From assembly GCA_000092065.1 (NCBI GenBank), contig CP000586.1: DNA of 64,000 nucleotides; one strand, given 5' to 3'. Below are positions 10,566-56,805 of this stretch, one piece after another (position 1 is the first letter of the stretch; every line of letters starts with the position of its first letter). Source of the stretch: Ostreococcus lucimarinus. Its lineage: Eukaryota. Both the position numbers and the translations under genes were made by a program. The notes beneath the pieces are model-generated. The model made no database searches. It was not told where the DNA came from and was given only the letters and a program-made list of their open reading frames with translations.

Positions 10566-13118
10566 TCAGAGGAACTTTTTGACGACGCGCTTGGACTCGT
10601 CGACGACGGACTCGAGGTCATCCTTGAGGTTGGCGTCCGAGGTGCCGTAGCGTTGGAACGAGTAAACCAACACGCCGGCGCCGAGAAGCTCTAACAATCG
10701 CGGCGCCGCGATGGCGACGAGCGGCCAGCGGGCGACGTTGCCGAGCACGTACGTGCCCGCGAGGGCGGTGGCCGGGCCCGCGATGTCGACCACGGGGTTT
10801 TCGCTGTCACCGAACCATTCCGGGACCTCCTTGAGCGTGTCGGTCACTTCGGAAATGTCGACGTCTTGCACCGCAGACACCGTCTTGGAGGCGGTCTTAC
10901 CGATCGGGGCCAGTTGATCGATGACTTCGCCGACATCGCCTGGCAACTCGCGCGGCAAGTTGGCGGCGAGATCTTCGATGTCGTCCGCGATATCGTCTTC
11001 GCCGACGAGGAGGTAACGCTCCAAGAGCAAGACGGCGGTCAGGGTGCCGATGAATTCGAGCGGACCCGGCACGAGCGAGCCGAGAACGGGCAAGTGCGCG
11101 ACGGCGTCGGTAGCCACGACAGCACCGACGGTGGCAGCCTTTACGTTAAAGTTGTCGATACCATCAATCGTCTCGAAAACTCCATCCGCCGCACCTTCAA
11201 GGTCGCCCTCGAGGAGCGAATCTCTGACGCCCGGCACGGCCAACGCGAGCGCGACGGCGGTGGCCAAGCTTACGGCGGCGACGTCACTGAACGTGGCGCC
11301 GACGAAGTCAAGGCTCTTGCTGCTGTTGTTGCGCGCAGTGGCGTCCGCGCGCGCCTTCGCAGTCTTGGCCTTGACTTCTTTAGCCTTCTTGTCCGCGAGA
11401 GCCTTCTTCTTCGCGGCGGCGGCAGCCTTGGCGTCAACCTTCTTCGCGGCGGGCTTGGAAGCGGCGGGCTTGGAAGCTGCGGGCTTCGGCGCGGCGGGCT
11501 TCGGCGCGGCGGCTTCAACCTTCGGCACGGCGGCTTCGACGGCCTTCTCTGCGGCGGCAACTTCTCTTTCCGCGGCTTGCTCGGCGCGAAGCGCTTCGCG
11601 TTCCGCGGCTTGCGCCTTGGCGGCGGCGGCGCGAGTGGCCTTGTCGTTGGTCATCGCCGCTTCCATCTTCGCCTTGGCGGCGGCTCGGGCGGCAACTTTT
11701 TCGGTAGCGGCGGCCTTAGCGGCGTTCGCTCTGGCAGCTTGCGCAGCCTTTCTGGCGGCCACTTGCTTATCGGCGCTCGACGTCGCTGCGCTGACGCGCT
11801 TTCTGCTCGATTCCGATTTCTCCGCGATGAGCTTCGCTCGCGCGTCGGCGGCAGCCTTGCGTTCGGCTTGCTTTTTAGCCGCAAGCTTGGAGGCCGCAGC
11901 AGCCTTCTCAGCTTGCTTGATGGCGCCCGGGGTCTTCTTCGGCGCTTGGATGACCGGAGCTTGAACAACCGGAGCTTCGACGACGGGTTCGACGACGACG
12001 GGCTTCTCCGCCTTTACCGGCGCCTTCTTCGCAAGACGCGCCTTCTTCGCGGCTTCAAGCTTGGCCGCGTTCGCAGCCTTAGCTTTGGCGGCAGCTTCTG
12101 CGCGTTCGGTGGCAGCCTTTTGCGCGGCGGCGGCAGCCTTCTCCGCTTCCGCGTCGCGCGCCGCCTTGATCTTGGCCAATTCCGCTTCGCGAGCCTCCTT
12201 GGCGGCTTCGCGCTTCGCCGCGGATGGCTTATCCGCGGACTTCGTCGGCATTTCCGCGACGGCAGGCGCTTCAGCCACCGGCGCGGTGGCCTTGGAAGCG
12301 ACACGCTTGACCGGACGCTTCGTCGTCGGCGCTGCCGTGGCTGCCGGCGCTGGCGCAGCCTTAGACGCCACGCGCTTCACCGGACGCTTCGTCGGCGGCG
12401 CCGCCACACCCTTCACGGTGCGCTTAGACACGACGCGCTTCACCGGACGCTTCGTCGTCGCCGCCGCCACACCCTTCACGGTGCGCTTAGACACGACGCG
12501 CTTCACCGGACGCTTCGTCGTCGCCGCCGCCTTGACCGCGGGCGCGGTCTTAGACGCCACGCGCTTCACCGCGCGCTTCGTCGTCGGCGTCGCCTTACCG
12601 GGCGCCGCCTTCGACGCGACGCGCTTCACCGGACGCTTCGTCGCCGGCACCGCCGTCGCCGTCGCCTTGGTCGCCGTTCGCGCGCGCACCTTCCTCACGC
12701 CCTTTCGCGCCCCCCCGCTCGTCGTTTTCGCCTTAAATTCCTTCTTCCCCGCCTTGACCTTCGGCGCGACGCGCGACGCCGTCGACTTCGCCGTCGTCGT
12801 CGTCGCTCGCCGCTTCGTCGTCCGTTCGTACGGCGTCCCTCTCCCGTTCACCGTCGACGCTCGCTTCGCCTCGTACGCCTCCGCGACGTCCGTCATCCCC
12901 ACGATCGCGCTCACCGCCACCGCCGTCGCCGCCATCGCCGTCGACCGTCGCTTCGCGTCGTCGTCGTCGTCGCTTCGCGCGTCGCCGTCGTCGCGTCGCG
13001 TCGTCGCGCGTCGCGCGATCGTCGCCTTCCCGCGTCGCGCATCGCGCGTCGCGCGTCGCGTCGTCGCGTCGCGTCGCCGCGCGGGCGCGCTCGGGATCGT
13101 CGCCGCCGCGAGGGACAT
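10566..13118 (-). CDS. lysine/alanine-rich repeat protein (histone-H1-like 21-aa tandem repeats, long charged coiled region, conserved hydrophobic C-terminal domain)
   Basis: 850-aa ORF. Tandem TTKRPVKRVVSKRTVKGVAAA repeats are encoded by 63-nt DNA repeats. There is a long A/K/E-rich helical region. The C-terminal ~280 aa are complex, non-repetitive sequence with hydrophobic helices. The opposite-strand ORF 10866..13205 is R/G/L junk. Confidence 0.6.
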   Translation of the reverse strand: MSLAAATIPSAPARRRDATTRRATRDARRGKATIARRATTRRDDGDARSDDDDDAKRRSTAMAATAVAVSAIVGMTDVAEAYEAKRASTVNGRGTPYERTTKRRATTTTAKSTASRVAPKVKAGKKEFKAKTTSGGARKGVRKVRARTATKATATAVPATKRPVKRVASKAAPGKATPTTKRAVKRVASKTAPAVKAAATTKRPVKRVVSKRTVKGVAAATTKRPVKRVVSKRTVKGVAAPPTKRPVKRVASKAAPAPAATAAPTTKRPVKRVASKATAPVAEAPAVAEMPTKSADKPSAAKREAAKEAREAELAKIKAARDAEAEKAAAAAQKAATERAEAAAKAKAANAAKLEAAKKARLAKKAPVKAEKPVVVEPVVEAPVVQAPVIQAPKKTPGAIKQAEKAAAASKLAAKKQAERKAAADARAKLIAEKSESSRKRVSAATSSADKQVAARKAAQAARANAAKAAATEKVAARAAAKAKMEAAMTNDKATRAAAAKAQAAEREALRAEQAAEREVAAAEKAVEAAVPKVEAAAPKPAAPKPAASKPAASKPAAKKVDAKAAAAAKKKALADKKAKEVKAKTAKARADATARNNSSKSLDFVGATFSDVAAVSLATAVALALAVPGVRDSLLEGDLEGAADGVFETIDGIDNFNVKAATVGAVVATDAVAHLPVLGSLVPGPLEFIGTLTAVLLLERYLLVGEDDIADDIEDLAANLPRELPGDVGEVIDQLAPIGKTASKTVSAVQDVDISEVTDTLKEVPEWFGDSENPVVDIAGPATALAGTYVLGNVARWPLVAIAAPRLLELLGAGVLVYSFQRYGTSDANLKDDLESVVDESKRVVKKFL
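12300..12680. repeat. in-frame 63-nt minisatellite (at least 6 copies) inside the K/A-rich protein CDS
   Basis: The CGCGCTTCACCGGACGCTTCGTCG... unit recurs with a 63-nt period (starts near 12371, 12434, 12497, 12560, 12620). It encodes 21-aa TTKRPVKRVVSKRTVKGVAAA repeats on the minus strand. Confidence 0.8.
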
Positions 13119-13210: not shown

Positions 13211-13350
13211 ACTGTTTACGCATACGTAACGTATTCTGCGTACGTTTACGCTATGAATGACGCTTGACGTGGTCGTATGTACTGTTTACGCATACGTAAC
13301 GTATTCTGCGTACGTTAACGCTATGCATGACGCTTGACGTGGTCGTATTC
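13211..13350. repeat. 70-bp tandem duplication (2 copies plus a partial third) in the bidirectional promoter between the K/A-repeat gene and PRP3
   Basis: ACTGTTTACGCATACGTAACGTATTCTGCGTACGTTTACGCTATGAATGACGCTTGACGTGGTCGTATGT is repeated with 2 mismatches. A partial copy CACTGTTTGCGCG follows at about 13359. Confidence 0.85.
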
Positions 13351-13442
13351 TGCGTTCGCACTGTTTGCGCGTCCAACGCGTCGGTCGCCGCGCGCGGCGT
13401 CGACGACCGCGCGCGCACACCGCGACGGACCGCGACGACGGC

Positions 13443-13724
13443 ATGCGCGCGTCGCGGTCGCGGTCGCGGTCGCGGTCGACCGATCGGTCGACGGCGCGCG
13501 CGAGCGCGCGCGACGGCGACGGCGCGCGAGGGACGGCGGCGTCGGACCGGGCGCGCGTGGACGGGATGACGGTGCGCGCGCTGCGGGACGCGCTGCGCGC
13601 GCGAGGGATGGCCACGGACGGGGTCAAGGCGACGCTGGCGGCGCGGTTGCTCGAGAGCGCGGGCGGTTCGGAGGGAGGGACGAAGCGGGCGCGGGAGGGG
13701 GGGGCGGCGCGCGACGGCGACGGC

Positions 13725-13777
<53 letters not shown>

Positions 13778-14270
13778 GGGGACGACGGCGACGCGAGCGA
13801 CGAAACGAAGGCGGTGGGAGGATGGCGACGGTGCGGAGGGGGCGGGGGAGGCGAAACCGGAGGCGGTGGTGGCGAAACCCAAGGCGGCGGGCGGTTTGGA
13901 CAAGGCGGCGCTGTTGAAGCAAAAGCAGGCGTTGTTGAAGCAGAAAGAACTCGCGGCGAAGCTCAAGGCGAAGAAGGTGGCGGACGAGAAAGCGAAGGCG
14001 GCTGCGGGGTCGCGTCCGAGCGCGCGTCCGATGGCGCTGCGACTCGACGCGCAAGGTCGAGAGATTGACGAACGCGGCGAATTGGTGGTGAACAAGGTTA
14101 TCGAGACGTCGACGCTGAGCGTGAATTTGAAGCAGCAACGCGCGAACGCTTTCGCGCAGGCGCAGGCGGAAGCGCAAGCGGAGATCGCGAGTCAGGCCGG
14201 GGCGGATTTTGACGATCCCAGAATGCGGGCTTTCGCGGGAAAGACTCGGAAAAAGCGTTCGGCTTTACAG
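13443..14270 (+). CDS. PRPF3: U4/U6 snRNP protein PRP3, exon 1 (RS-rich N-terminus, SAP-like motif, coiled coil, start of the PRP3 domain)
   Basis: LRLDAQGREIDERGELV and FDDPRMRAFAGKTRKKRSALQ align with human PRPF3 (LDAQGRTVD...FFDPRVS...RRTFKF). The exon ends at CAG|GTGCGT (donor at 14271), phase 0. Confidence 0.8.
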
Positions 14271-14679
14271 GTGCGTTTGAATCGACGCGATTTCCAACCG
14301 CCTCGTGATTTTTTCTTCGTCATTGCATCTTTCAAAGCTCCGTGGTAATCTCACGACATGCCCCTTGGAGACTACAAGATTGCAAAATTGAAAGGCTGGC
14401 GCTCTAATACTCCTCTGAGGTTTCCACTCAGGAGGGTTACGCTGCGTCGGTACATTTTCCACGAAAGCAAGTTACACTCTGTCGCGAGACCTTCTCATGT
14501 CACGTTGCAATTTTTATGCTTGCGATAGTAAATAGCGGATTGGACAGCTGGCGGGGCGCTCTTATCATAGTGGGCGTCATCTCCTTACCATCCGAACCAC
14601 ATTTTTTTGGTTTCGACGAGAAACGTTTTTCTCGGCTTTTCGCCGACTGACCTCGTTTTGCGCGCGTTTTCGTTTGCAG
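14271..14679 (+). other. PRP3 intron 1 (409 nt, unusually long and AT-rich for this genome)
   Basis: GTGCGT donor, CTGAC branch point about 30 nt before the CAG acceptor. GC content near 48% against about 66% in the flanks. Confidence 0.75.
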
Positions 14680-15484
14680 TTCGTCGAGGACGGTAAGTTT
14701 CAGAAAGAAGCCGACATGCACAGGCTTCGCATGCAATTCGGCGACGAAAAGGCGGAAAGGATGAAGGAGCGATCTGAGCGCGAGCGCAAACACGCCGAAC
14801 GCATGGAAAAGTTGGAAAAGGAGGCGACGATGGATCCCAACTTGGTTCCGGTAGGCGAGCGCCCTTCGGCGGCGAAGGGTGCGAGCGCGGCGAGGCCGTT
14901 AGCGCCTTTGGATGAAATACCCGACGTCGAATGGTGGGACCGGGATATTTTGCGTAACGGGACGTACGACGACGTCACGGGTGGAAAATGGAACGTGAAT
15001 ATGGACAAGTTTAACGTGTACGTCGAGCACCCCGTGCCGATCAAACCGCCTCTGAACGCGCCTGCGCCGGCGCCGCAACCTCTGATGCTCACTAAAGCGG
15101 AGCAGAAGAAACTGCGCACGCAGCGTCGCGTCGCACGAGAAAAGGAAAAGCAAGAGATGATCAGGCAAGGGTTGATTGAGCCCCCGAAACCAAAGGTGAA
15201 AATCTCCAATTTGATGCGCGTGTTGAAGGACGAAGCCGTGCTCGATCCCACAGCTATGGAGAAGGAAGTGCGAGAGCAGATGGCTGAGCGCGAGCAAGCT
15301 CACCAAGATAGAAATTTAGCGCGCATGCTCACGCCGGCGGAACGACGTGAGAAGAAGATGCGCAAGTTGCTAGGGAACGATGCGGCGGGCGAGGTACACA
15401 TGCACGTGTACCGCGTCGAAGACATGTCCAACACAAAGAATAAGTTCAAGGTTGACGTGAACGCGCAAGAGAATCACTTGACGG
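14680..15484 (+). CDS. PRPF3: PRP3 exon 2 (PRP3 domain)
   Basis: The acceptor ...CGTTTGCAG|TTC is preceded by a CTGAC branch point. The exon encodes FVEDGKFQKE...IPDVEWWDRDIL...LTKAEQKKLRTQRRVAREKEKQEMIRQGLIEPPKPKVKISNLMRVL, matching PRPF3. It ends with a split codon at G|GTACGT (donor at 15485). Confidence 0.8.
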
Positions 15485-15692
15485 GTACGTTTCACGTTCG
15501 TAACTTCACTCGACATCGATATTTCGTCTTTGATGAATTCGCGAAACCATTACTAGTACTGAAAGCCTCAGAGCCTCCGGGCTTTGATCGAGACAAACGC
15601 TATCCCTGAGACGCTCTGTTGTGAGAACGCTGACGACGTCGCGGGGCCGCGCGCGACTGATGACTGACCAGAAGAAATTCGATCACACGCAG
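15485..15692 (+). other. PRP3 intron 2 (208 nt)
   Basis: GTACGT donor, CTGAC branch point, CAG acceptor. The frame is restored across the junction. Confidence 0.7.
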
Positions 15693-16021
15693 GCGTCGGT
15701 TTAATCGCTGAAGCATTCACGATTGTGATCGTCGAGGGAACGGCGAAAGCCGTTCGCCGTTACGACAAACTCATGATGCGCCGAATCGATTGGAACGCCA
15801 AGCTGAACGATGATAACGACGAAATGGACGCCGACGACGCGAAGAAGAACAAGTGCACTCGCGTGTGGAGAGGGACCTCGACATCACACGCTCTGAGACG
15901 CTTCTGTTTCGAGACGTTTCGATCGGATGCGGCGGCTCGACGATACTTAGCAGAGTTCAAGCTCGAACATCTTTACGACGCCGCGTTTGCGGCGATCGCG
16001 TGCGCCGAAGATTCGGAATAA
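15693..16021 (+). CDS. PRPF3: PRP3 exon 3 (C-terminal DUF1115 region)
   Basis: Acceptor CAG at 15690-15692, with CTGAC about 25 nt upstream. The junction reconstitutes LTG-VGLIAEAFTIVIVEGTAKAVRRYDKLMMRRIDW, the same length and pattern as human [36 protein letters not shown]. Stop at 16019-16021. Confidence 0.7.
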
Positions 16022-16026
16022 TGTAA
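16022..16026 (+). terminator. TGTAA poly(A)-signal-like pentamer immediately after the PRP3 stop (example of a recurring pattern)
   Basis: TGTAA lies within about 5-40 nt of the stop of several genes (PRP3, rubredoxin gene at about 7600, LepA at about 23990, ORF at 8576-8899 at about 8912). This is the chlorophyte poly(A) signal. Confidence 0.4.
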
Positions 16027-16085
16027 TACCATGAAATGAGAGATGGGACGAGAAATCTACTGACATTGTTGATCTTTTACACGCA

Positions 16086-17693
16086 CTAATGCAATTCGAG
16101 CAATTTCATGAGCTTTGCGGCGATATCGAGCGAAATCATCACACCTCCATCCACGCGCTGGAAATCCACCATTAGCCTATCGTTTGGCATCTTGTACACT
16201 TGGAGTTCAAACTTCAACACCGTAGGCTCACGCTGTCGACCTGGGCGCATGGTTGAGCGACCGTCTTCGCTCATTGGTGGTGTCGTGACGCCGAGGTCTT
16301 CGTCCATCGCGTCTTGATCGCCCGCCGCGACGTCACCGTCCGCCATGTCGTTGTCCATAGCGTCGCCGTGGCAGTGGAGAACGCACATGCACTTCATGTT
16401 ATACGGTCCGTTCTTCTTCCAAGACACGTCCATCACGCGTAATACGCGAATCAACTCGTTGAAAACGTCTAGTGCGCCCATCTTTGAAGCCGTTCCAAGC
16501 ATCCAACGCTGCTCGGCGACGAGACGCTGTTGCATCATGTGCGCGTGCACTTGACTCGGTCGTCGCACGCCTAGTGCAGACGCGACGCCGTGTCGCATGT
16601 TGTTGTGTTCCGCCATGATCTCTGCATCGTCGTATTCGGCGCCTAAGTACCCACCGTATATGTTTCGCCTATTGTCCAGTAGCAAGTAATACGTCACCGT
16701 CGCCTTGTTACGGATTTGATGCCTTAGAGCGTCAATCAACGGTTCGCGCTCAAAGCCTAAGTTGATCACCATATCCAAAGTCTCCCCATCGAGATTGGAT
16801 GTTTGCGATATCTGCGTTTGCGGCGGTACCACGAGATAGCGCGGTAGATGCACGACGAACCACTGATGGTGACGAATCTCCGCCATGGTGATTCGCTTGA
16901 GCGGGTCTACGAAGAGCATGCGCGATATTAAGTCTCGCGCCCCCGGGCTCAGATGGCTTGGTAAGCTATATACCCCACCCTTGATCTTTTTAAACAAGTT
17001 TGGGATGCTTTCATCGTCGAAAGGCAACGATCCACACAGAAGCGCGTACAAAATCACCCCGCAACTCCACACGTCCACCTCGGGGCCGCTGTACAGCTTG
17101 CCGCTAATCACCTCTGGCGCGGCGTAGTTGGGACTCCCGCACGACGTCTTCAAAAAGTGACCGTCCCGCATGACGTTCGACAACCCGAAATCCGCAATCT
17201 TGACGTTATTCCGCGAATCCAGCAACAAGTTTTCCGGCTTCAAGTCGCGATGCACGACCATATTCCGATGGCAATACTCCACCCCCGATATGATTTGTTG
17301 AAAGAAATGCCTCGCCTCGTTTTCCCCCAATCGTCCCTTCTCCACGATGTAATCGAACAACTCGCCCGACTTCACGTACTCCATCACCAAAAAGATGTCG
17401 TGCGGCGTCTCCAATATCTCGTACAACCGAATGATGTGCGGATGCATGAACAGCCGCAAAATCTTAATCTCCCGTCGCACCTTTTCCTCCATGTCGATCG
17501 CCTTGATCTTCTTCCGATTCAAAATCTTGATCGCCACCTTGTGTCCCGTCAGCACGTGTTCCGCCACTTTCACCTTCCCGAACGACCCGATCCCGAGCGT
17601 CTTCCCGATGCGATAGTTCGGCAGGTAAATCTCCGCTTGCCCTCGCGACGCCCCCCCGCTCGCGTGCGTCCCGCTGTCCTCCCCGCCCTCCAT
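16086..17693 (-). CDS. SnRK1: SNF1/AMPK/SnRK1 catalytic alpha subunit (Ser/Thr protein kinase)
   Basis: Kinase subdomains LGIGSFGKVKVAEHVLTGHKVAIK, HRDLKPENLLLD, DFGLS, and a T-loop SCGSPNYAAPE. It also has a UBA-like segment and a KA1-like C-terminus typical of SnRK1. Confidence 0.9.
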   Translation of the reverse strand: MEGGEDSGTHASGGASRGQAEIYLPNYRIGKTLGIGSFGKVKVAEHVLTGHKVAIKILNRKKIKAIDMEEKVRREIKILRLFMHPHIIRLYEILETPHDIFLVMEYVKSGELFDYIVEKGRLGENEARHFFQQIISGVEYCHRNMVVHRDLKPENLLLDSRNNVKIADFGLSNVMRDGHFLKTSCGSPNYAAPEVISGKLYSGPEVDVWSCGVILYALLCGSLPFDDESIPNLFKKIKGGVYSLPSHLSPGARDLISRMLFVDPLKRITMAEIRHHQWFVVHLPRYLVVPPQTQISQTSNLDGETLDMVINLGFEREPLIDALRHQIRNKATVTYYLLLDNRRNIYGGYLGAEYDDAEIMAEHNNMRHGVASALGVRRPSQVHAHMMQQRLVAEQRWMLGTASKMGALDVFNELIRVLRVMDVSWKKNGPYNMKCMCVLHCHGDAMDNDMADGDVAAGDQDAMDEDLGVTTPPMSEDGRSTMRPGRQREPTVLKFELQVYKMPNDRLMVDFQRVDGGVMISLDIAAKLMKLLELH

Positions 17694-18027
17694 CGCGCCT
17701 CCGTCGCGCGTCCGTCCGAGCGCGCGCTCGCGTCGCGCTCGCGTCGCGCGCGACCGTCGCTCGCGTCACGCGTCGTCGCGCGGTCGCGCGCGTTCGCGTT
17801 CGCGCGTCGCGCGCGCCGATCGACGCGCCTCGCGCGAGAATAAAATTACGACGCGTCTCGAGACGCGCGCGCGTCCGGGTCGCGCGCGCGCCGCGCGGGC
17901 GCTCGAGTCGACGCGCTCTCTCTCGCGCGCGCCGTTCGCGGTCGCGCGCGCGCGCGCGGTCGCGTGTGCGGCCGACGCGCGCGAGGGCACGGGCCAACGA
18001 ACGGCGTTGCGTCGAGGACGGCTCGTG

Positions 18028-18042
18028 ACTGTTTACCCATAC
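18028..18042 (+). promoter_or_regulatory. ACTGTTTACCCATAC motif in the SnRK1 / malic-enzyme divergent promoter
   Basis: Exact 15-mer, identical to 21886..21900. One C-to-G change from the two copies in the 13211..13350 repeat. Confidence 0.55.
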
Positions 18043-18296
18043 AAAAAGAGTGAGTGTTGAGTCACGACCCGTCGATCGGCGTGGGTCGGCACACCCGCGT
18101 GTGCGGCGTCGCCCGCCGCGTCGCCCGCGCGCGCCGTCGACCGCGCACCGCGACGCGACCGCGACGCGCGCGCCCGCGGGACGATCGCGACGTCCCGTCG
18201 CGACCGGACGCGCGCGGGCGCGCGGTCGACGGACGCGGCGCGGCGCGATTTTTACCGAAAACGCGTCGCGGCGCGGCGACGCGCGACGCGACGGCG

Positions 18297-20210
18297 ATGG
18301 CGACGCGACGCGACGGCGTCGCGCGGGCGGTGGCGCGCGCGGTGCGAAGTCGCGCGATGTGCGGCGCGATGACGGTGACGCGAGGCGCGGGCGAGGCGGG
18401 ACGCGAGGACGCGCGAGGGACGACGCGGGCGTTTCGCGCGACGGCGCGCGGCGAGCGGGACGAGGTCGAGCTCGAGGACGCGCGCGGTGAGTCGGCGACG
18501 CGACGTCCGATGGTGCCGTGGACGCGACAGGTGGTGTCTGGGGTGGAACTGCTGCGGTCGGGGAAGTATAACAAAGGGATGAGCTTCACGCGGGACGAAC
18601 GCGATAGGTTGAACTTGCGCGGGTTGTTGCCGCCGGCGGTGTTCGATCAGAGCGTGCAGGTCGAGCGCGTGATCGAGCGCTTGCGTCGGGTGACGAACGA
18701 CGTCGAAAAACATGCGTGGCTCGCGTCGCTGTACGAACGAAACGAGCGGCTGTTTTATCGCGTGGTGAAGGACCATTTGGAGGAGTTGTTGCCGATTTTA
18801 TCGGCGCCGACGGTTTGGCAAGTGTGCGCCGAGTTTGGTTTGATGTACAGACGACCGCGCGGGTTGTACATCTCCATCAAAGACCGCGGGTCCGTGTATA
18901 GGCTGTTGAAAAATTGGCCCGTGCGCGACGTCAAGGCGATCGTGCTCACGGACGGGCAACGCGTCACGGGACTCGGCGATTTGGGCGTCCAAGGCATGGG
19001 CACGGCGGTGGGCAAGTCGACGTTATTCACCGCGCTCGGCGGCCTCGACCCGGCGGACGTGTTGCCAATTTGTATCGATGTGGGTACGGACAACCAGGCG
19101 TTGCTCGAGGATAAGTTTTACATCGGTCTGAGGCAAAAGCGAACCGGCGGCGAGGAATACGACGACTTGCTCGACGAAGTCGTCTACGGGTTGAAGCGGC
19201 GTTTCGGCCCGCGCGTGTTGCTATGCTTCGAAGAATTTTCCAACAAGAACGCAAAGCGATTGCTTGATCGATACAACAGCAATTCTGTCGCGTATTGCGA
19301 TGATTTGCAGGGCATCGCTGCGACGACGTTGGCGGCGATTATCTCGGCGCTGCCGCAAATGGGCGGATCATTGAGAGAGCAGCGGTTTCTTTTCGCCGGC
19401 GCCGGGGAGACCGGTGCACACACCGCAGATTTATTGGCGACGTATATTTCGCAACAACACGGCATATCGTTGCCCGAGGCGCGAGAGAACATTTATTTCA
19501 TAGATAGAAAAGGTTTGGTGACGCGCGATCGGGCGCAACGCGAGGACGATTTGGAAATTCACAAACTACCCTACGCGCACGACATGGAAGGTGCGGCGTC
19601 CGTGCGCGAATCCGTCGAGCTCATCAAACCGACGGCGTTGATTGGCGTCCGTCGACACCGATTTTCCTTCTTCGAAGGCTCAGTGCTGAAGGATGAAAAG
19701 CTCTTCACCGAGGACGTGTTGCGCGCGATGGCGAAACATAGCGAGAAACCGCTCATCATGGCGCTTTCGCGACCGAGCGCGCTGCGCGAGTGCACGGCCA
19801 AGGAAGCGTACGAGGCGACGAACGGGAAGTGCATCTTCGTCGGCGGGTGCAAGTCGACGCCGTTCGAGTACGCGGGTAGAGAAATCGCGCCGTCCGAATG
19901 CAGCACCGAATACGTCTTTCCGGGATTGGGACTCGGCTTGACCATCGCCGAAGGCACGCGCGTGCGAGACTCTTTACTCATGGAAGCCGCCGAAGTCGTG
20001 GCCAACAGCGCCACTCCGGGCGATATCGCTCGCGGCGCCGTGTTCCCGCGAAAGCGCCACATTCCCGACGTCTCCGCGCGCGTCGCCGCGCGCGTCGCCG
20101 GTAAGGCGTTCGCGAGCGGTTTGTCCGCGCTCCCGGGCAAGCCCATGGACTGGCTTCGCTTGGCGAAATCGTGGATGTTCGACCCGACGTATCGCCCCTA
20201 CACGCCTTGA
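18297..20210 (+). CDS. ME: NADP-dependent malic enzyme with a transit-peptide-like N-terminus
   Basis: Full malic-enzyme N-terminal and NAD(P)-binding domains (RDERDRLNLRGLLPP, VLTDGQRVTGLGDLGVQGMG, FAGAGETGAHTADLL). The ORF-track start at 18054 is non-ATG. The first in-frame ATG is at 18297. Confidence 0.9.
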   Translation: MATRRDGVARAVARAVRSRAMCGAMTVTRGAGEAGREDARGTTRAFRATARGERDEVELEDARGESATRRPMVPWTRQVVSGVELLRSGKYNKGMSFTRDERDRLNLRGLLPPAVFDQSVQVERVIERLRRVTNDVEKHAWLASLYERNERLFYRVVKDHLEELLPILSAPTVWQVCAEFGLMYRRPRGLYISIKDRGSVYRLLKNWPVRDVKAIVLTDGQRVTGLGDLGVQGMGTAVGKSTLFTALGGLDPADVLPICIDVGTDNQALLEDKFYIGLRQKRTGGEEYDDLLDEVVYGLKRRFGPRVLLCFEEFSNKNAKRLLDRYNSNSVAYCDDLQGIAATTLAAIISALPQMGGSLREQRFLFAGAGETGAHTADLLATYISQQHGISLPEARENIYFIDRKGLVTRDRAQREDDLEIHKLPYAHDMEGAASVRESVELIKPTALIGVRRHRFSFFEGSVLKDEKLFTEDVLRAMAKHSEKPLIMALSRPSALRECTAKEAYEATNGKCIFVGGCKSTPFEYAGREIAPSECSTEYVFPGLGLGLTIAEGTRVRDSLLMEAAEVVANSATPGDIARGAVFPRKRHIPDVSARVAARVAGKAFASGLSALPGKPMDWLRLAKSWMFDPTYRPYTP

Positions 20211-20232
20211 GCGTCGATTCGTCTCGTCTCCG

Positions 20233-20279
20233 CGCGTTGTGATACCACTCGATTCACGCGCGTTGTGATACCACTCGCG
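20233..20279. repeat. 21-bp direct repeat CGCGCGTTGTGATACCACTCG twice, in the 90-bp spacer between the malic enzyme stop and the EMC10 start
   Basis: Two exact copies separated by 5 bp (GATTCA). Confidence 0.7.
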
Positions 20280-20300
20280 TGACGCGCCGCACACGCCGAC

Positions 20301-21173
20301 ATGCCGACGCGTCCTCGCGCGCGCGCGCACGTCCTCGCCGCGCTCGCGTGCGCGCTCGCGTGCGCGCTCAACCTCGCGCGCGCCTCCGACGTTTCGTTCA
20401 CCGCCGATGCGCGACGACGCGGCGGCGAAGAGATCTCTTTCCCGCTCGAACACTCCCTCGACGGCGTCGCGTTCGTCCACGCGGGCGTCGTCACGGGCAA
20501 GCTCGCGGTCGATCGGAACGACGCGAGGAACTTTAGGCTGAGCGCGCCGAAGGCGACGCGGGAACCGCTCGACGCGAGCGCGGCGGCGGCGCTGAACGCG
20601 CTGGCGGCGAGCGGCGGCGCGTACAGGATACGAGCGCCGAGCAACTTCGCGAGCGGTAGACCTGGATCGTACGTCATGGCGTCCCTACCGGCGCGGTGCG
20701 TGTTGGCGGCAAATTTGGCGGACGCGCTGACGGTGCACGCGGACGATCGAGGGAACGCGTACGGGATTGAATACGCGGCGGCGAACGGGGAATGCGACGC
20801 GCGCGACGAGGCGGCGACGACGAAACGCGCGAGCGCGGGTTCGAAGTTTAGGACGACGGTGTACGTGCGCGTGGGGAAAGATGCGCCAGGGCTAAATCCG
20901 GACGCGCCGACGGACGTGCGCGGCCACGGCTCGCCGGCGACGGATCGAAGTAAACGCGAGGCGGAACAGCGACGAAAGGCGCGCGAAGGCGGCGACGGGA
21001 AAAGTGACGGCGCCAAAGAAATACCGACGCAAATGACGTTCTTCCAGCGACACTGGTTGAAGATTATGTTTAGTAGCTACGTTTTTGCGTTTTTGTGCGC
21101 GCCGGCGGAGACGCGCGATACGCGCGCGGCGGCGCAACGAAGAGTCAACGCGGCGACGAAGAAACGACAGTAG
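20301..21173 (+). CDS. EMC10: ER membrane protein complex subunit EMC10-like (signal peptide, lumenal beta-rich domain, C-terminal TM)
   Basis: N-terminal signal peptide VLAALACALACALNLARA. The C-terminus FFQRHWLKIMFSSYVFAFLCA resembles the EMC10 FxKYWMYI...TM tail. Confidence 0.6.
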   Translation: MPTRPRARAHVLAALACALACALNLARASDVSFTADARRRGGEEISFPLEHSLDGVAFVHAGVVTGKLAVDRNDARNFRLSAPKATREPLDASAAAALNALAASGGAYRIRAPSNFASGRPGSYVMASLPARCVLAANLADALTVHADDRGNAYGIEYAAANGECDARDEAATTKRASAGSKFRTTVYVRVGKDAPGLNPDAPTDVRGHGSPATDRSKREAEQRRKAREGGDGKSDGAKEIPTQMTFFQRHWLKIMFSSYVFAFLCAPAETRDTRAAAQRRVNAATKKRQ

Positions 21174-21283
21174 CGGCGATGATGGTATACACAGCGCGTT
21201 ATTTTTAATCAAAACATCAGTTAGTCACCAATCAACCGACGGTGTTCGACCGACCGATGTCGCGCGCGCGCTGAGAGCAAAGC

Positions 21284-21784
21284 CTACGCCTCGCTCGTTT
21301 TCGGCTTGGAGCCCGCGCCGGTCTCCGCCAACCCGTTCAACTCCTCGTTCAACTTCTTCACGTTCTTCTCCACCCCACTCTCCGCTTGATCGCTGAAATT
21401 ATCGATCGCCGCGTTCAACGCCGCGATCTTATCGTTCAAATTCTGTCTCGTCACCTCCAGCTCGTCCTCGCTCTCGTCGTCCAGCGCCTTGTTCAGCGCG
21501 CGCTTCCCCCCCAGCAGCGTCTTGCTCAGTTGCGGCGCGAACAAGAACCCCAGCGCGCCGAACACCGCGCCACCGACGAGCAATCCACCGACGAATCCCT
21601 TCCCGCGTCCTTTGCGCTCCTCGAACTCGCTGCGCGCGCGCACGTCGCGCCGTCCATCGCCGATTCGCGCGCGCGCGAATCCAGCCCGCGGTCGTTCGCG
21701 CGCGCGATTCTCCCTCGCGCATCGCGCGCGCGCGGGCGTCGCGCGCGCGCGCGGCGCGTTCGCGCCGACGACACTCGCGCGCAT
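21284..21784 (-). CDS. small plastid-type membrane protein (presequence, one TM helix, coiled-coil tail; YtxH/DUF948-like)
   Basis: GFVGGLLVGGAVFGALGFLFAPQ helix followed by amphipathic ALNKALDDESEDELEVTRQNLNDKIAALNAAIDNF. The ORF-track start at 21877 is GTG. The first ATG gives MRASVVGA at about 21784. Confidence 0.45.
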   Translation of the reverse strand: MRASVVGANAPRARATPARARCARENRARERPRAGFARARIGDGRRDVRARSEFEERKGRGKGFVGGLLVGGAVFGALGFLFAPQLSKTLLGGKRALNKALDDESEDELEVTRQNLNDKIAALNAAIDNFSDQAESGVEKNVKKLNEELNGLAETGAGSKPKTSEA

Positions 21785-21885
21785 CGCTCTCGCGTCGCGC
21801 GCGCGCGCGGGCGTTCGCGCGGCGTCGTGTGACGCTCGGACGCCGCGCGTCGCGGCACCGAACGTTCGGGTCGCCACTCGCTCTC

Positions 21886-21900
21886 ACTGTTTACCCATAC
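21886..21900 (+). promoter_or_regulatory. ACTGTTTACCCATAC motif in the divergent promoter, 33 bp upstream of the LepA/GUF1 ATG
   Basis: Exact 15-mer shared with 18028..18042. Same orientation relative to the plus-strand gene in all three loci. Confidence 0.55.
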
Positions 21901-21932
21901 GTCGACGCGTCTAACCGCAGAAATCGACGCGC

Positions 21933-23933
21933 ATGGCGTCGCGCACGGCGTCGCCGCGCGCCGCGCGCGCGCCGTGCGTCTCGCGCGCGCCCACCTCGCC
22001 CACCGCGCGCGTCTCGAGGCGCGCGCGCGCGCGCCGGGCGTCGCGCGTGACGCCCAGCGCGACGCCGCCCAAGGCGCCGCCCAAAAACGAAGTCGCGCCG
22101 CCGACGCCCGGTCAGGTGCGCCAGGTGCCGCCGAGTCGCATACGAAACTTTAGCATCATCGCGCACATCGATCACGGGAAGTCCACGCTGGCGGACACGC
22201 TGCTGATGCGGACGAAGACGGTGAAGGAGCGGGACATGGTGAAGCAGGTTTTGGATAGCATGGACTTGGAGCGCGAGCGGGGGATCACGATCAAGCTGAA
22301 CAGCGCGCGGATGGATTACGTGGCGAGCGACGGGGAGCTGTACGTGCTGAATTTGATCGATACGCCGGGACACGTGGATTTTTCGTACGAGGTGTCGAGA
22401 TCGTTGGCGGCGTGCGAGGGGGCGTTGCTCGTGGTGGACTCGAGCCAGGGCGTGGAGGCGCAGACGGTGGCGAACGTGTACTTGGCGCTGGAGAATGATT
22501 TGGAGATTTTCACGGTGCTGAATAAGATTGATTTGGCGGGGAGCGAACCGGATCGGGTGAAACAGGAGATCGAGGACGTGTTGGGGTTGGACGCGAGCGA
22601 CGCGATTTTGGCGAGCGCGAAGGCAAACATCGGGATGGACGACATCTTGGAACGCATCGTGCAGGTGGTGCCACCGCCTCGCGACACCGCGAACGAACCG
22701 CTTCGGGCGTTAATCTTCGATTCGTATTTCGATCCCTATCGCGGTGTCGTCGCCGTGTTCCGAGTCATGGACGGGACGATGAAGACGGGGGACGCGATGA
22801 AGATGATGGCCACGGGCGCGACTTTCGCTGCGGATGAGATCGGCATCATGCGTCCAGACAAGGTGCCGGTGAAAGAGCTCGGCCCTGGTGAGGTCGGCTA
22901 CATCATCGGTGGCATCAAGTCAGTCGCGGATGCGCGCGTCGGGGACACGATCACGCTCTCAAAGAATCCCGCCGCCGAGGCGCTGCCGGGTTACTCAAAG
23001 TCGGTGCCGATGGTGTTCGCGGGAATCTTCCCCACCGATACCGATCGATACGATGACTTGCGCGAATCTCTCCAACGGCTGCAAATCAACGACTGCTCGC
23101 TGTCGTTTGAACCCGAGCAAAACAGCGCCATGGGCACGGGCTTTCGCTGCGGTTTCCTCGGGTTGCTTCACATGGAAATCATCCAAGAACGACTCGAGCG
23201 CGAGTATGATTTAGATTTGATCACCACCGCACCTTCGGTGGTTTACAACGTGTATAGAACAGATGGAACGATGGATTCGATATCCAATCCGGCGGACTTG
23301 TGCCCGCCAGAGCTTCGCGAACGAATCGAGGAACCGTACTGCAGATTGGACATGATCGCCCCTTCGGATTACGTGGGCACGCTCATGGAACTTGCGAGCC
23401 AACGGCGTGGAGAGTTCATCGACATGACGTACCTTTCCGAGACGCGTACCTCAATCAAGTACGACATACCTTTGGCCGAGGTCGTCACGAATTACTTCGA
23501 CGACATGAAGTCGCGTTCTCGCGGGTACGCCTCGATGGAGTACGCCATCACGGGGTACCGCCAGAGCGATCTCGTGCGCTTGGACGTCTTGATCAATCAA
23601 GAGCCGGCCGATCCGTTAGCGGTGATCACGCACCGCGACAGGGCATACAGCATCGGACGTCAGCTCGTCGACAAGCTCAAAGAGCTCATTCCCCGCCAAA
23701 TGTTTCGCATTCCGATTCAAGCCGCCATCGGCAACAAAGTCATCGCCGCCACTTCCATCTCCGCGATGCGCAAGGACGTCACCGCCAAGTGTTACGGCGG
23801 CGACATCTCGCGCAAGAAAAAGCTGCTCAAAAAGCAAGCCGCGGGTAAAAAGCGCATGAAGCAATTCGGCAAGGTGGAAGTTCCTCAAGACGCGTTTTTA
23901 GCCGTCTTGAGCGTCGACGGCGCCGCGGATTAA
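21933..23933 (+). CDS. GUF1: translation factor GUF1/LepA (EF4), organellar type
   Basis: G-domain motifs [21 protein letters not shown]. LepA-specific C-terminal domain (LepA_C), 666 aa. Confidence 0.9.
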
Positions 23934-49073: not shown

Positions 49074-49098
49074 TCGGCGCGCGCGTCACACGGCGGCG

Positions 49099-56611: not shown

Positions 56612-56805
56612 GGCTCGCGCTCGTCGGCGTCGGCGCGCGCGTGTGGCGTCGCGGCGAATGGCGGCGGCGGCGGCGGCGGCGCGGGCGACCGACCGAGATT
56701 GGCGCGTATGGGCAAACAGTGATGTTACACGTGGACGCGCGACGCGCGACGCGGTGCGCGCGCGCGACGCGCGGGCGGCGCGCGCGCGACCGCGAGTCAT
56801 CGCGG

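What the first reader, a model, noticed from the sequence alone, without database searches (positions are those of the whole stretch)
13211..21900. Shared 15-nt motif ACTGTTTAC(C/G)CATAC at three unrelated bidirectional promoters
The 15-mer ACTGTTTACCCATAC occurs exactly at 18028-18042 (SnRK1/malic-enzyme promoter) and 21886-21900 (plastid-protein/LepA promoter). The one-mismatch variant ACTGTTTACGCATAC occurs twice in the 70-bp tandem repeat at 13211-13350 (K/A-repeat-gene/PRP3 promoter). All four copies sit in divergent promoters and point the same way, with the plus-strand gene downstream. A 15-mer is not expected to recur by chance in 64 kb, and none of the flanking sequence is shared, so this is not a transposon copy. 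It looks like a discrete cis-element, such as a core-promoter or TSS element or a transcription-factor site. I do not recognise it as a described motif.
Basis: seen in the sequence. Interest (0 to 1): 0.6.

Follow-up and report, generated by a model that had tools for sequence, protein, structure and literature searches.

The report
Recurring 15-base promoter motif in Ostreococcus
A 15-16 base sequence (ACTGTTTACCCATACG) recurs just upstream of unrelated housekeeping genes in a marine picoalga and several relatives, and most likely is the docking site of an unidentified DNA-binding protein that helps define promoters in these very compact genomes.

Summary
ACTGTTTACCCATAC is exact at 18028 and 21886. 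The one-mismatch form occurs twice in a 70-bp tandem repeat at 13211-13348. Shuffles predict 0.01-0.09 matches.

The window comes from an Ostreococcus-clade green alga. All four motif loci fall in the ~12% of the window that is non-coding, and their flanks are unrelated.

A metagenome scan found 61 distinct sites in similar CpG-rich algal contigs. Of these, 72% lie outside predicted genes against 24% expected. They favour divergent and same-strand upstream positions (12 divergent, 8 sense-tandem, 2 antisense, 1 convergent). The downstream genes are diverse, and nothing outside the 16-mer is conserved.

Two diverged species keep the motif 207 and 211 nt upstream of the same purine-synthesis gene. 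The distribution is otherwise patchy, with none in small samples of O. tauri, Micromonas and Bathycoccus.

The same 15-mer also sits inside 74-nt repeated introns (introner-like), inside a repeated mobile-looking element, and next to a telomere.

Best reading: a binding site for a sequence-specific, general-regulatory-type factor. A transcription-start-positioning element is the main rival. The motif appears undescribed in the literature I could search.

The parts
13211..13225 (+). Motif copy 1 (ACTGTTTACGCATAC, G at position 10). It opens unit 1 of the 70-bp repeat. It lies 92 nt from the ATG (13118) of the minus-strand K/A-rich gene and 217 nt upstream of the ATG (13443) of the SAP-domain/PRP3 gene.
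13281..13295 (+). Motif copy 2 (ACTGTTTACGCATAC), which opens unit 2 of the 70-bp repeat, 147 nt upstream of the ATG at 13443.
13211..13348 (+). 70-bp tandem repeat (2.0 copies here). Other haplotypes of the same species carry 1, 2, 3 or more units, each starting with the motif.
13360..13374 (+). Degenerate copy ACTGTTTGCGCGTCC directly after the repeat. It is probably a decayed third unit.
18028..18042 (+). Exact motif in the divergent SnRK1 (16086-17693, minus) / malic enzyme (18297-20210, plus) intergenic region. It lies 334 nt from the SnRK1 ATG and 254 nt upstream of the malic enzyme ATG.
18057..18073 (+). Companion motif TTGAGTCACGACCCGTC, 14 nt downstream of the main motif. The same pairing and spacing occur at three non-orthologous loci (L206, L248, L175). 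The companion also occurs alone in other promoters.
21886..21900 (+). Exact motif in the 148-nt divergent intergenic region between the Ssl2009_C plastid-type gene (21284-21784, minus) and LepA (21933-23933, plus). Only 32 nt separate the motif from the LepA ATG.
56706..56720 (-). Fifth copy (ACTGTTTGCCCATAC, G at position 8) in a head-to-tail intergenic region. It lies 85 nt downstream of the stop codon of the MutL/PMS1-type gene (56806-59397, minus) and 94 nt upstream of the ATG (56611) of the CCCH zinc-finger gene (55907-56611, minus). It has the same orientation as both genes.

Best explanation
ACTGTTT(A/G)C(C/G)CATAC(G) is a discrete DNA cis-element of RNA polymerase II promoter regions in a subset of Ostreococcus-clade prasinophytes. 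It is most likely the recognition site of one asymmetric, multi-domain, sequence-specific DNA-binding protein of the 'general regulatory factor' type. A Myb-repeat protein is the leading guess.

Inferred mechanism: the factor binds in the short intergenic regions, 50-350 nt from start codons, of many unrelated housekeeping genes. There it would keep the promoter nucleosome-free, activate transcription, or insulate it from the neighbouring gene. Local duplications (units of 70, 41, 32 and 13 bp) create clusters of sites.

Shown here: non-random recurrence, restriction to non-coding upstream DNA, absence of conserved flanks, invariance within a population, retention at some orthologous promoters, and turnover at others.

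Inferred only: protein binding, the identity of the factor, and the effect on chromatin or transcription.
For: **Recurrence in the window**
- 5 copies (6 counting the degenerate one) against 0.01-0.09 expected.
- All 4 loci fall in the ~12% of the window not covered by predicted genes. By my arithmetic 0.12^4 is about 2e-4.

**The motif is discrete**
- No shared flanks in the window.
- No information outside the 16-mer across 59 distinct sites, apart from a weak T/T/C preference at -5 to -3.
- No half-sites in the window.

**Metagenome scan**
- The scan with the 16-mer hit its 120-locus limit. 93 hits lie in CpG-rich Mamiellales-like contigs and form 61 distinct sites.
- 44 of 61 sites lie outside crude coding predictions, against 24% expected (p = 4e-15).
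- Context counts are 12 divergent, 8 tandem-sense, 2 tandem-antisense and 1 convergent.
- Unseeded extra copies (up to 2 mismatches) number 13 in 537 kb, against about 0.65 for shuffled motifs.

**Downstream genes are functionally diverse**
- Among the ORFs I recognised by eye are amidophosphoribosyltransferase (family confirmed), glutamyl-tRNA synthetase, phytoene synthase and glutaredoxin. Only the window's own genes were run against Pfam. This argues for a general rather than pathway-specific element.

**Constraint**
- The motif is invariant in 7 haplotypes while the nearest SNP is 2 nt away.
- Two species whose PurF proteins are 86% identical keep the motif 207 and 211 nt upstream of the ATG, and the motif is the only long alignable block.
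- The LepA/Ssl2009 intergenic region carries the motif in this species and, as 3 tandem copies in the opposite orientation, in a species with 85% SnRK1 identity.

**Position is flexible**
- Distance to the downstream ATG ranges from 0 to about 700 nt and both orientations occur. This fits a binding site within a nucleosome-free region better than a fixed-position core element.

**Resemblance to known sites and other contexts**
- The motif contains TTACCC, the invariant part of the yeast Reb1 core TTACCCK. It also contains ACCCATAC(A), which fits the Rap1 core ACCCRnRCA. Both consensus sequences were read in PMC5880240.
- A copy lies about 34 nt inside a telomeric (CCCTAAA)n tract. Yeast general regulatory factors also occupy subtelomeres (PMC9531808, title and abstract seen).
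- The motif sits between inverted CCAAT boxes in a repeated element.
Against: - No binding, chromatin or expression data exist. The factor is hypothetical.
- Orientation is biased in head-to-tail regions: 9 sense against 2 antisense including the window copy, one-sided binomial p about 0.03. The LepA copy ends only 32 nt from a start codon that has no alternative Met (sequence). Both points would also fit a transcription-start-proximal or transcribed element.
- Distribution is patchy. The syntenic 21.5 kb of a sister species (SnRK1 at least 90% identical) has no copy within 3 mismatches. None was found in 21.6 kb of O. tauri, 12 kb of another Ostreococcus contig, 2 x 21.8 kb of Micromonas or 21.8 kb of Bathycoccus. 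An essential general factor would be expected to be more uniformly used.
- The same 15-mer is carried by introner-like introns and by a repeated element, so mobile DNA may explain part of its spread.
- The metagenome sites were selected by the motif itself. Gene models there are crude GC-frame ORF predictions.
Confidence: 0.55

Rival explanations
1. Core-promoter or transcription-start-positioning element. The motif is read directionally by the basal machinery or a dedicated start-site selector, and transcription of the gene it points to begins in or just downstream of it. The distance to the ATG would then simply be the 5' UTR length.
For: - Sense orientation is preferred in head-to-tail intergenic regions: 8 to 2, plus the window copy at 56720.
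- The LepA copy ends 32 nt from a start codon with no alternative Met, so it must lie within about 35 nt of the start site or inside the 5' UTR.
- Several other sites lie 0-45 nt from the first ATG.
- There is a weak pyrimidine preference just upstream of the initial A.
- Distances of 30-350 nt are plausible 5' UTR lengths.
Against: - Distances to the ATG are broad, from 0 to about 700 nt.
- In divergent promoters the motif is often closer to the gene it points away from, for example 13-46 nt.
- At the LepA/Ssl2009 promoter the orientation is flipped between two species.
- Tandem arrays of 2-3 copies at 32-70 bp spacing are unusual for a start-site element.
- It is absent from orthologous promoters of close relatives that still express the same genes.
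- No transcript 5' end data could be obtained.
Confidence: 0.2
2. Mobile-element-derived sequence. The 15-mer is a functional part of transposable or introner elements, for example a transposase or host-factor binding site, or the element's own promoter. The solitary promoter copies would be remnants or domesticated fragments spread by insertion into open promoter chromatin.
For: - The variant ACTGTTTGCCCATAC lies at the centre of 73-77-nt repeated introns with the layout GTACGT..TTTCCCAAATCCC..motif..ACTGACA..CAG. There are 4 copies in 8 kb of L185 and one in L231. Removing two of them restores open reading frames.
- Their size and polar origin match the E2-IEt1 introner family of Micromonas clade E2 (PMC4540971).
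- A repeated element shares 0.5-1 kb upstream of the motif and ends about 100 nt downstream of it. It carries the motif flanked by inverted GTACCAG-type repeats in at least 7 loci.
- The patchy species distribution, promoter turnover and copy-number-variable tandem arrays fit mobile or unstable DNA.
Against: - In the window, and in most of the 61 sites, nothing beyond 16 nt is shared. There are no terminal inverted repeats, target-site duplications or inverted partner copies.
- A decaying insertion would not leave an invariant 15-mer in otherwise randomised flanks unless the 15-mer itself is under selection. That brings the argument back to a functional site.
- The motif is retained at the orthologous PurF promoter of two diverged species.
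- Mobile elements commonly carry host-type promoter motifs, so the direction of borrowing is open.
Confidence: 0.12
3. RNA-level element. The sequence acts in the transcript, in 5' UTRs and introns, as a binding site for an RNA-binding protein or a small RNA.
For: - Sense bias relative to the downstream gene.
- Some copies lie so close to the ATG that they must be transcribed or sit at the start site.
- The introner-like copies are all in the sense strand of the host gene.
Against: - Antisense copies exist.
- The orientation is flipped at an orthologous promoter.
- One copy sits next to a telomere.
- Introners are retained only in sense orientation regardless of any such role, because they carry the splice signals.
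- There is no conserved flanking structure and no Rfam family in the window.
- The divergent-promoter copies lie far upstream of some ATGs.
Confidence: 0.06
4. Another chromatin landmark, such as a replication-origin recognition sequence, that merely coincides with intergenic nucleosome-free regions.
For: - The density of about one locus per 16-20 kb in this species.
- The intergenic location and the presence next to a telomere are compatible with origin-like elements in compact genomes.
Against: - The strong preference for gene 5' sides, 12 divergent against 1 convergent, is not what the yeast precedent predicts.
- Four copies within 8 kb of introns are hard to reconcile with origins.
- Nothing here tests the idea.
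Confidence: 0.03

Closest known systems
Binding sites of yeast general regulatory factors Reb1 (TTACCCK) and Rap1 (ACCCRnRCA)
   Same: - Long, asymmetric, nearly invariant motifs found at hundreds of unrelated promoters in a compact genome, and also at subtelomeres.
- They organise nucleosome-free regions and can block read-through from the upstream gene (PMC5880240; PMC5052057; PMC9531808).
- The algal motif contains TTACCC, and ACCCATAC(A/G) overlaps both cores.
   Different: - The seventh Reb1 position is A here, not G/T. Most copies end in G where Rap1 has A.
- The 5' half, ACTGTTT, has no counterpart.
- No Reb1 or Rap1 orthologue was sought or shown.
- The similarity is by inspection only, and the organisms are very distant (fungi versus green algae).
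Long housekeeping-promoter motifs of animals (for example the ZNF143/Staf site, or Drosophila Motif 1 and DRE/BEAF sites)
   Same: - 12-20-bp motifs in promoters of broadly expressed genes, often close to start sites.
- This is from my own knowledge. BEAF at housekeeping promoters is mentioned in the PMC12549938 abstract.
   Different: - The sequence is unrelated.
- Those factors are metazoan zinc-finger or BED proteins.
- Positional constraint relative to the start site is documented for them but is untested here.
Plant telo-box (AAACCCTA) bound by Myb-type telomere-repeat-binding proteins
   Same: - A short promoter element of housekeeping and translation genes that is related to telomere biology (my own knowledge).
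- Here, telomere-type heptamers lie 18-34 nt upstream of the motif at several sites, and one copy abuts a real telomere tract.
   Different: - The motif is not a telomere repeat on either strand.
- A true telo-box occurs once in the window at 6733, separate from the motif.
Micromonas clade E2 introner element E2-IEt1 (Simmons et al. 2015, PMC4540971)
   Same: - 74-75-nt repeated spliceosomal introns from polar Micromonas.
- The 73-77-nt repeated introns in L185 and L231 have this size, a repeated sequence and canonical GT..AG ends.
- Their centre carries ACTGTTTGCCCATAC.
   Different: - I could not see the published consensus, because it is in a figure and the supplements are not held. Identity with E2-IEt1 is therefore inferred from size, habitat and behaviour.
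- The window itself contains no such intron.

Membership tests
Promoter cis-regulatory motif (transcription-factor / general-regulatory-factor site) | Occurs far more often than chance | tested here: met
   5 copies against 0.01-0.09 expected in the window. 13 unseeded copies against about 0.65 for shuffled motifs in 537 kb.
Promoter cis-regulatory motif (transcription-factor / general-regulatory-factor site) | Confined to non-coding DNA on the 5' side of genes | tested here: met
   4 of 4 window loci lie in the 12% of the window that is non-coding. 44 of 61 sites lie outside coding predictions, p = 4e-15. Divergent 12 against convergent 1.
Promoter cis-regulatory motif (transcription-factor / general-regulatory-factor site) | Conserved at orthologous promoters while flanks diverge | tested here: inconclusive
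   Kept at the PurF promoter in two species and in the LepA/Ssl2009 region in two species. Lost at all three orthologous sites of a sister species and at PurF in O. tauri and two other contigs.
Promoter cis-regulatory motif (transcription-factor / general-regulatory-factor site) | Bound by a specific protein, and mutation changes expression or chromatin | not testable with these tools
   Needs DAP-seq, pull-down or reporter assays.
Core-promoter / initiator-type element | Fixed position relative to the transcription start site | not testable with these tools
   No transcript 5' end data were reachable. The proxy, distance to the ATG, is broad at 0 to about 700 nt.
Core-promoter / initiator-type element | Strict sense orientation toward the regulated gene | tested here: inconclusive
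   9 sense against 2 antisense in head-to-tail regions (plus the window copy). Orientation is flipped at the LepA/Ssl2009 promoter between species.
Dispersed repeat / transposon copy | Copies share sequence beyond the motif, with terminal repeats or target-site duplications | tested here: not met
   For the window copies and most metagenome sites, flanks are unrelated and there is no inverted partner. The feature is met only for separate families elsewhere.
snRNA-type proximal/upstream sequence element (SNAPc-dependent promoter) | A small RNA gene downstream at a fixed distance | tested here: not met
   No Rfam family and no tRNA anywhere in the window. Protein-coding genes follow the motif.
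Yeast Reb1 / Rap1 site | Match to the published core consensus | tested here: inconclusive
   By inspection, TTACCC matches 6 of the 7 positions of TTACCCK. ACCCATACA at 18028 fits ACCCRnRCA, while the other copies end in G. Consensus sequences are from PMC5880240.
Yeast Reb1 / Rap1 site | An orthologous Myb-type factor present and binding | not tested
   No search for the factor was made.
Plant telo-box | Sequence AAACCCTA | tested here: not met
   The motif lacks it on both strands. The single telo-box in the window is elsewhere, at 6733.

The most novel reading that the evidence does not exclude
The 15-mer is the recognition site of a lineage-restricted DNA-binding factor that is shared between host promoters and mobile DNA. 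An introner family of polar Micromonas (E2-IEt1-like) and a repeated element of Ostreococcus both carry it at their core. Mobile elements would then either have spread a promoter-organising site through these genomes, or use a host promoter factor for their own propagation. That would tie the origin or targeting of an introner family to a defined, testable protein-DNA interaction.
Probability: 0.15. Interest if true: 0.8.

Novelty: new member of a known kind. Interest (0 to 1): 0.5.

Why it matters
Almost nothing is known about how promoters are specified in Mamiellales, whose intergenic regions are only 100-300 bp long. A 15-16-bp, nearly invariant element near roughly a fifth of gene starts in this window gives three things.

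- A handle for finding the factor, by affinity purification or DAP-seq.
- A building block for synthetic promoters in these model picoalgae.
- A marker for studying rapid promoter turnover between very close species.

Its presence inside introner-like introns and a repeated element also offers a concrete link between promoter architecture and intron-generating mobile DNA.

Tried and rejected
- **Viral contig scan** with ACTGTTTACSCATAC. It returned 120+ single hits, all in low-GC phage coding sequence at about the chance rate. Uninformative.
- **Rfam and tRNA scans** of the window. Nothing found, so the motif is not part of a known RNA gene or a small-RNA promoter.
- **Full-text search** for the motif and its reverse complement. 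Only chance primer matches. Searches on Ostreococcus/Micromonas promoter motifs and start sites found nothing relevant. The one paper likely to bear on it (Piganeau et al. 2009, J Mol Evol, phylogenetic footprinting in Ostreococcus) is not held. The supplements of the introner paper are not held either.
- **Searches for weaker forms in the window.** Half-sites, the companion motif CGGACATTCGG and other recurrent 11-12-mers gave none or only coding low-complexity words.
- **Alignment of the three promoters with the sister species**, to look for insertion boundaries. The intergenic DNA is too diverged to tell. At the malic-enzyme promoter the sister has 8 of 15 matching bases at the motif position while the companion motif is kept.
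- **Orthology of L206, L248 and L175 to the malic-enzyme promoter.** Rejected by tblastn. They are independent loci with the same two-motif arrangement.
- **Transcript 5' ends.** The contig look-up returns the longest (genomic) contigs first, so transcript-derived contigs could not be reached.
- **Plant transcription-factor sites recalled from memory** (forkhead TGTTTAC, Myb core CNGTTR, E2F, site II). None fits the whole motif, and to my knowledge forkhead factors are not known in green plants. These remain untested leads.

Full report
**1. The observation**

A pattern search confirms the 15-mer ACTGTTTACCCATAC exactly at 18028-18042 and 21886-21900. The variant ACTGTTTACGCATAC is at 13211-13225 and 13281-13295, all on the plus strand.

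Allowing three mismatches adds nothing. Dinucleotide-preserving shuffles give 0.01-0.09 expected matches, and none of 100 shuffles reaches five.

The first two copies open the two units of a 70-bp tandem repeat at 13211-13348, with 97% identity between units. A decayed copy, ACTGTTTGCGCGTCC, follows at 13360.

Printing each copy with 60 nt upstream and 120 nt downstream shows that nothing outside the motif is shared. There are no half-sites elsewhere in the window. No other non-coding word of 11-12 nt recurs at three loci.

**2. Where the copies sit**

The window is a gene-dense eukaryotic sequence with 62.5% GC, and about 88% of it is covered by a simple GC-frame ORF model. Its proteins identify a Mamiellales green alga of the Ostreococcus clade:
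- The SnRK1 kinase is 85-88% identical to unnamed marine relatives and 70% identical to Bathycoccus prasinos.
- A purine-synthesis gene from one motif-bearing contig is 84% identical to the Ostreococcus tauri protein.
- Identical proteins occur on many Tara Oceans contigs and on contigs of 0.82-0.85 Mb.

I could not name the species.

Gene calls and Pfam hits place the copies as follows.

| Site | Intergenic context | Distance to gene behind the motif | Distance to gene ahead of the motif |
|---|---|---|---|
| 13211 / 13281 | Divergent: K/A-rich gene (ATG 13118, minus) and SAP-domain gene (ATG 13443, plus) | 92 nt (from 13211) | 217 and 147 nt |
| 18028 | Divergent: SnRK1 (ATG 17693, minus) and malic enzyme (ATG 18297, plus) | 334 nt | 254 nt |
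| 21886 | Divergent, 148 nt long: Ssl2009_C plastid-type gene (ATG 21784, minus) and LepA (ATG 21933, plus) | 101 nt | 32 nt |
| 56706-56720 (minus) | Head-to-tail: MutL/PMS1-type gene and CCCH zinc-finger gene, both minus | 85 nt past the MutL/PMS1 stop | 94 nt to the CCCH ATG (56611) |

The SAP-domain gene is the front part of PRP3, because Bathycoccus encodes SAP and PRP3 as one protein.

All four independent loci therefore fall in the roughly 12% of the window that is non-coding. The probability by chance is about 2e-4 (my arithmetic). The shared plus-strand orientation of the first three loci is uninformative, because either orientation points at a gene in a divergent promoter. The fifth copy is informative: it has the orientation of its downstream gene.

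**3. Variation within the species**

Six contigs from different metagenomes carry the identical LepA protein and the same gene order.
- The 15-mer is unchanged at every site in all six.
- The 70-bp repeat has 1, 2, 3 or more units, each starting with the motif.
- SNPs occur in the flanks, the nearest 2 nt after the motif at 21902.

**4. Orthologous loci in relatives**

| Sample | Relation to the window species | Sequence examined | Motif within 3 mismatches |
|---|---|---|---|
| Sister species (L127-L129) | SnRK1 at least 90% identical, fully syntenic | 21.5 kb | None |
| More distant Ostreococcus-type contig (L130) | SnRK1 85% identical | 21.5 kb | Three tandem copies, 41-bp period, in the LepA/Ssl2009 region, pointing at Ssl2009 instead of LepA |
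| Two Micromonas-type contigs | Partial synteny | 21.8 kb each | None |
| Bathycoccus | Partial synteny | 21.8 kb | None |
| O. tauri, around PurF | Named reference genome | 21.6 kb | None |
| Another Ostreococcus contig (L257) | PurF 88% identical to the motif-bearing L135 contig | 12 kb | None |
| Third PurF contig (L258) | PurF 89% identical to the motif-bearing L135 contig | 10.6 kb | A cluster of degenerate copies (ACTGTTTCCGCATAC, ACTGTTTACACATAC) upstream of a steroid-dehydrogenase-type gene |

At the malic-enzyme promoter the sister species has 8 of 15 matching bases where the motif would be. The neighbouring element GAGTCATGACCC is retained there.

Extending the window's own species by about 16 kb added only one 3-mismatch copy. 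It lies 77 nt upstream of a CHD-type gene, in sense orientation.

Each single absence is weak evidence at a density of one locus per 16-20 kb. Taken together (0 in about 108 kb, my sum over the sister species, O. tauri, the two Micromonas contigs and Bathycoccus), the absences show that use of the motif is uneven among species. Sites also turn over quickly.

**5. A wider sample**

One scan of public metagenome contigs with ACTGTTTACCCATACG hit the 120-locus limit.
- About a quarter of the hits are chance matches in low-GC bacterial or phage sequence.
- 93 hits are in CpG-rich, 46-69% GC contigs of the Mamiellales type.
- These collapse to 61 sites with distinct flanks.

Location was scored with a crude gene model: ORFs with GC3 > GC1 > GC2.
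- 44 of 61 sites lie outside predicted coding sequence, although only 24% of those loci is non-coding (binomial p = 4e-15).
- Where both neighbours lie within 800 nt, 12 sites are in divergent regions, 8 in head-to-tail regions in the sense orientation, 2 in head-to-tail regions antisense, and 1 in a convergent region.
- Adding the window copy gives 9 sense against 2 antisense, one-sided p about 0.03 (my arithmetic).

The element therefore belongs to gene 5' sides, not 3' ends, with a moderate sense bias. The distance to the next ATG ranges from 0 to about 700 nt, with a median near 170-200 nt.

A position-by-position count over 59 sites shows no information outside the 16-mer, except a weak T, T, C preference at -5 to -3.

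In the same 537 kb, 13 further copies with up to 2 mismatches were found, against a mean of 0.65 for 20 shuffled versions of the motif. Variable positions are 8 (A/G), 10 (C/G), 12 and 13.

The downstream ORFs are diverse. By eye I recognise amidophosphoribosyltransferase, UDP-sugar pyrophosphorylase, a ZIP transporter, glutamyl-tRNA synthetase, a histidine-kinase rhodopsin, phytoene synthase, mannose-6-phosphate isomerase, glutaredoxin, GDP-mannose dehydratase and an LSD1-type amine oxidase. Of these, only the amidophosphoribosyltransferase family was confirmed by a tool.

Among the 61 sites, three pairs have orthologous downstream genes. The clearest pair is the amidophosphoribosyltransferase (PurF) promoter of two species whose proteins are 86% identical. 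The motif lies 207 and 211 nt from the ATG and is the only long block that aligns. This sample was selected by the motif, so it cannot measure conservation rates.

**6. Other contexts of the same 15-mer**

*Introner-like introns.* In a 56% GC contig from a JGI marine metagenome that I suspect, from memory of the sample series only, to be Arctic (L185), and in L231, the variant ACTGTTTGCCCATAC sits at the centre of repeated 73-77-nt introns. Their layout is AG|GTACGT..TTTCCCAAATCCC..motif..ACTGACAC..TTTTC..CAG.
- There are four copies in 8 kb.
- Removing two of them restores open reading frames of 159 codons.
- This matches the description of the 74-75-nt E2-IEt1 introner family of polar Micromonas clade E2 (PMC4540971).
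- I could not see the published consensus.

*A repeated, mobile-looking element.* At least seven loci share 0.5-1 kb upstream of the motif. The shared sequence ends about 100 nt downstream of the motif at GATTCAAGCACCCCTA. In these loci the motif sits in the core GGTCAAT-motif-ATTGGCGCGTTCGGACATTCGG, flanked by inverted runs of GTACCAG-type units. Shorter versions of this core occur in ordinary promoters (L188, L201). CAAT and ATTGG are inverted CCAAT boxes.

*Next to a telomere.* One contig ends in at least 14 CCCTAAA telomere repeats, with the motif about 34 nt inside. Telomere-type heptamers lie 18-29 nt upstream of three other copies.

*A companion motif.* A second long motif, (TT)GAGTCAYGACCCGT, recurs in these promoters. 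It lies 14 nt downstream of the main motif at 18057-18073 and at three loci that are not orthologous to the window's malic-enzyme region.

**7. How it most likely works**

An invariant, asymmetric 15-16-bp word with random flanks is the signature of a site read by one sequence-specific factor with an extended DNA-binding surface. So are its restriction to gene 5' regions, its presence at many unrelated housekeeping genes, and its tendency to form homotypic clusters.

The flexible distance and the occasional inversion fit a factor that works anywhere in the short nucleosome-free intergenic region. Such a factor could act by nucleosome exclusion, by activation, or by blocking read-through from the upstream gene. 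A fixed-position core element fits these features less well. I put this reading at 0.55.

The main rival, at 0.20, is a start-site-proximal element. The sense bias and the LepA copy support it. The LepA copy ends 32 nt from an ATG with no alternative Met before the GTPase domain (sequence). That copy must therefore lie within about 35 nt of the start site or inside the 5' UTR.

Lower-ranked rivals:
- Mobile-element origin (0.12). It is suggested by the introner and repeated-element copies and by the patchy distribution. A 15-mer kept invariant in randomised flanks still implies a function of its own.
- An RNA-level role (0.06).
- An origin-like landmark (0.03).

**8. Comparison with what is known**

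Functionally the closest analogues are the yeast general regulatory factor sites.
- Reb1 has the core TTACCCK, extended to VTTACCCGNH. Rap1 has the core ACCCRnRCA. Both 'positionally organize chromatin' at promoters (PMC5880240).
- Both factors can roadblock polymerase II ahead of a downstream promoter (PMC5052057).
- Reb1 also acts at subtelomeric X elements (PMC9531808).

The algal motif contains TTACCC and ACCCATAC(A/G), so it overlaps both cores. The match is partial and by inspection only, and no factor was examined. It works like such a site, but membership is not established.

It is not any of the following:
- A telo-box.
- A small-RNA promoter element.
- A transposon copy, at least in this window.

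**9. Novelty and verdict**

Searches of the held literature for the sequence itself, and for promoter motifs in these algae, found no description. One potentially relevant paper could not be read.

I rate it a new member of a known kind: a promoter cis-element with an unknown factor. Its unusual features are:
- Its length and invariance.
- Its uneven use among very close species.
- Its presence in introner-like introns and in a repeated element.

Interest is 0.5.

**10. Limits**

- No transcript, chromatin or binding data were available.
- The wider sample was ascertained by the motif.
- Gene models outside the window are crude.
- Species assignments of the metagenome contigs rest on composition and on two protein comparisons.

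Noticed in passing
window 18178-20275 (compare L005:7901-8700): One haplotype of the same species (L005, a Tara metagenome contig) lacks about 2.1 kb, including the whole malic-enzyme gene. The two flanks overlap by about 57 nt in the alignment. There the motif lies about 100 nt upstream of the next gene call (ECM10-like, L005:8369). This could be a real presence/absence polymorphism or an assembly collapse.
   Followed up: partly
window 13211-13348; L001-L006: The 70-bp repeat varies in copy number within the population (1, 2, 3 or more units). Similar motif-bearing tandem arrays with other periods occur elsewhere: 41 bp in L130, 32 bp in L171, and 13/61 bp in L258.
   Followed up: partly
window 18057-18073; L128:9693(-) and 21378; L206:416; L248:9865; L175:2948; L163, L176, L196, L249, L250: A second long promoter motif, (TT)GAGTCAYGACCCGT, contains an AP-1-like TGAGTCA. 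It recurs in these genomes with or without the main motif. In four cases it lies 11-14 nt downstream of the main motif (14 nt in three, 11 nt in L175).
   Followed up: partly
L185:266(+), 3999(+), 5536(+), 732(-); L231:265(+): Repeated 73-77-nt spliceosomal introns (GTACGT..TTTCCCAAATCCC..ACTGTTTGCCCATAC..ACTGACAC..CAG) occur in a Micromonas-like contig from a marine metagenome. They are most likely the E2-IEt1 introner family.
   Followed up: partly
L179, L205, L243, L236, L142, L137, L183 (motif positions): A repeated element shares 0.5-1 kb of sequence and ends at GATTCAAGCACCCCTA. Its core is CAAT-motif-ATTGGCGCGTTCGGACATTCGG, flanked by inverted GTACCAG/GTATCAG runs. It sits on lower-GC contigs (46-56%). 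Its nature (long terminal repeat, terminal-inverted-repeat element or foldback element) was not determined.
   Followed up: partly
L178 (reverse strand 1-140); L251:60-130: One motif copy lies about 34 nt inside a terminal (CCCTAAA)n telomere tract and points toward the chromosome interior. L251 has the same arrangement next to a short interstitial tract.
   Followed up: partly
window 17601-18400, 21601-22000, 29201-30000, 48801-49200 and others: Intergenic regions and gene 5' regions are much more GC-rich (74-78%, with long CG-dinucleotide tracts) than gene bodies (51-60%). The motifs form small AT-richer islands within these tracts.
   Followed up: no
window 13443-14348 and 14716-15609: The SAP-domain ORF and the PRP3 ORF are separate here, but Bathycoccus encodes them as one 804-residue protein. 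They are probably one gene with an intron between 14348 and 14716.
   Followed up: no
window 10566-13118 (-), repeats 12291-12654: An 850-residue K/A-rich ORF has no Pfam match and contains a 63-bp internal tandem repeat of 5.7 copies. Orthologues in relatives are also repeat-rich and vary in length (773-908 residues).
   Followed up: no
window 6733-6741: A single plant-type telo-box (AAACCCTAA) lies in the divergent intergenic region between the DNA-methylase-type gene (5366-6481, minus) and the next plus-strand gene.
   Followed up: no
L259:8227-8241(-): Just upstream of the window in the same species lies a 3-mismatch variant, ACTGTTTGTACATAC. It is followed 13 nt later by CCGAATGTCCG, the reverse complement of the CGGACATTCGG companion seen in the repeated element. 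It lies 77 nt upstream of a Chromo/SNF2 gene.
   Followed up: no
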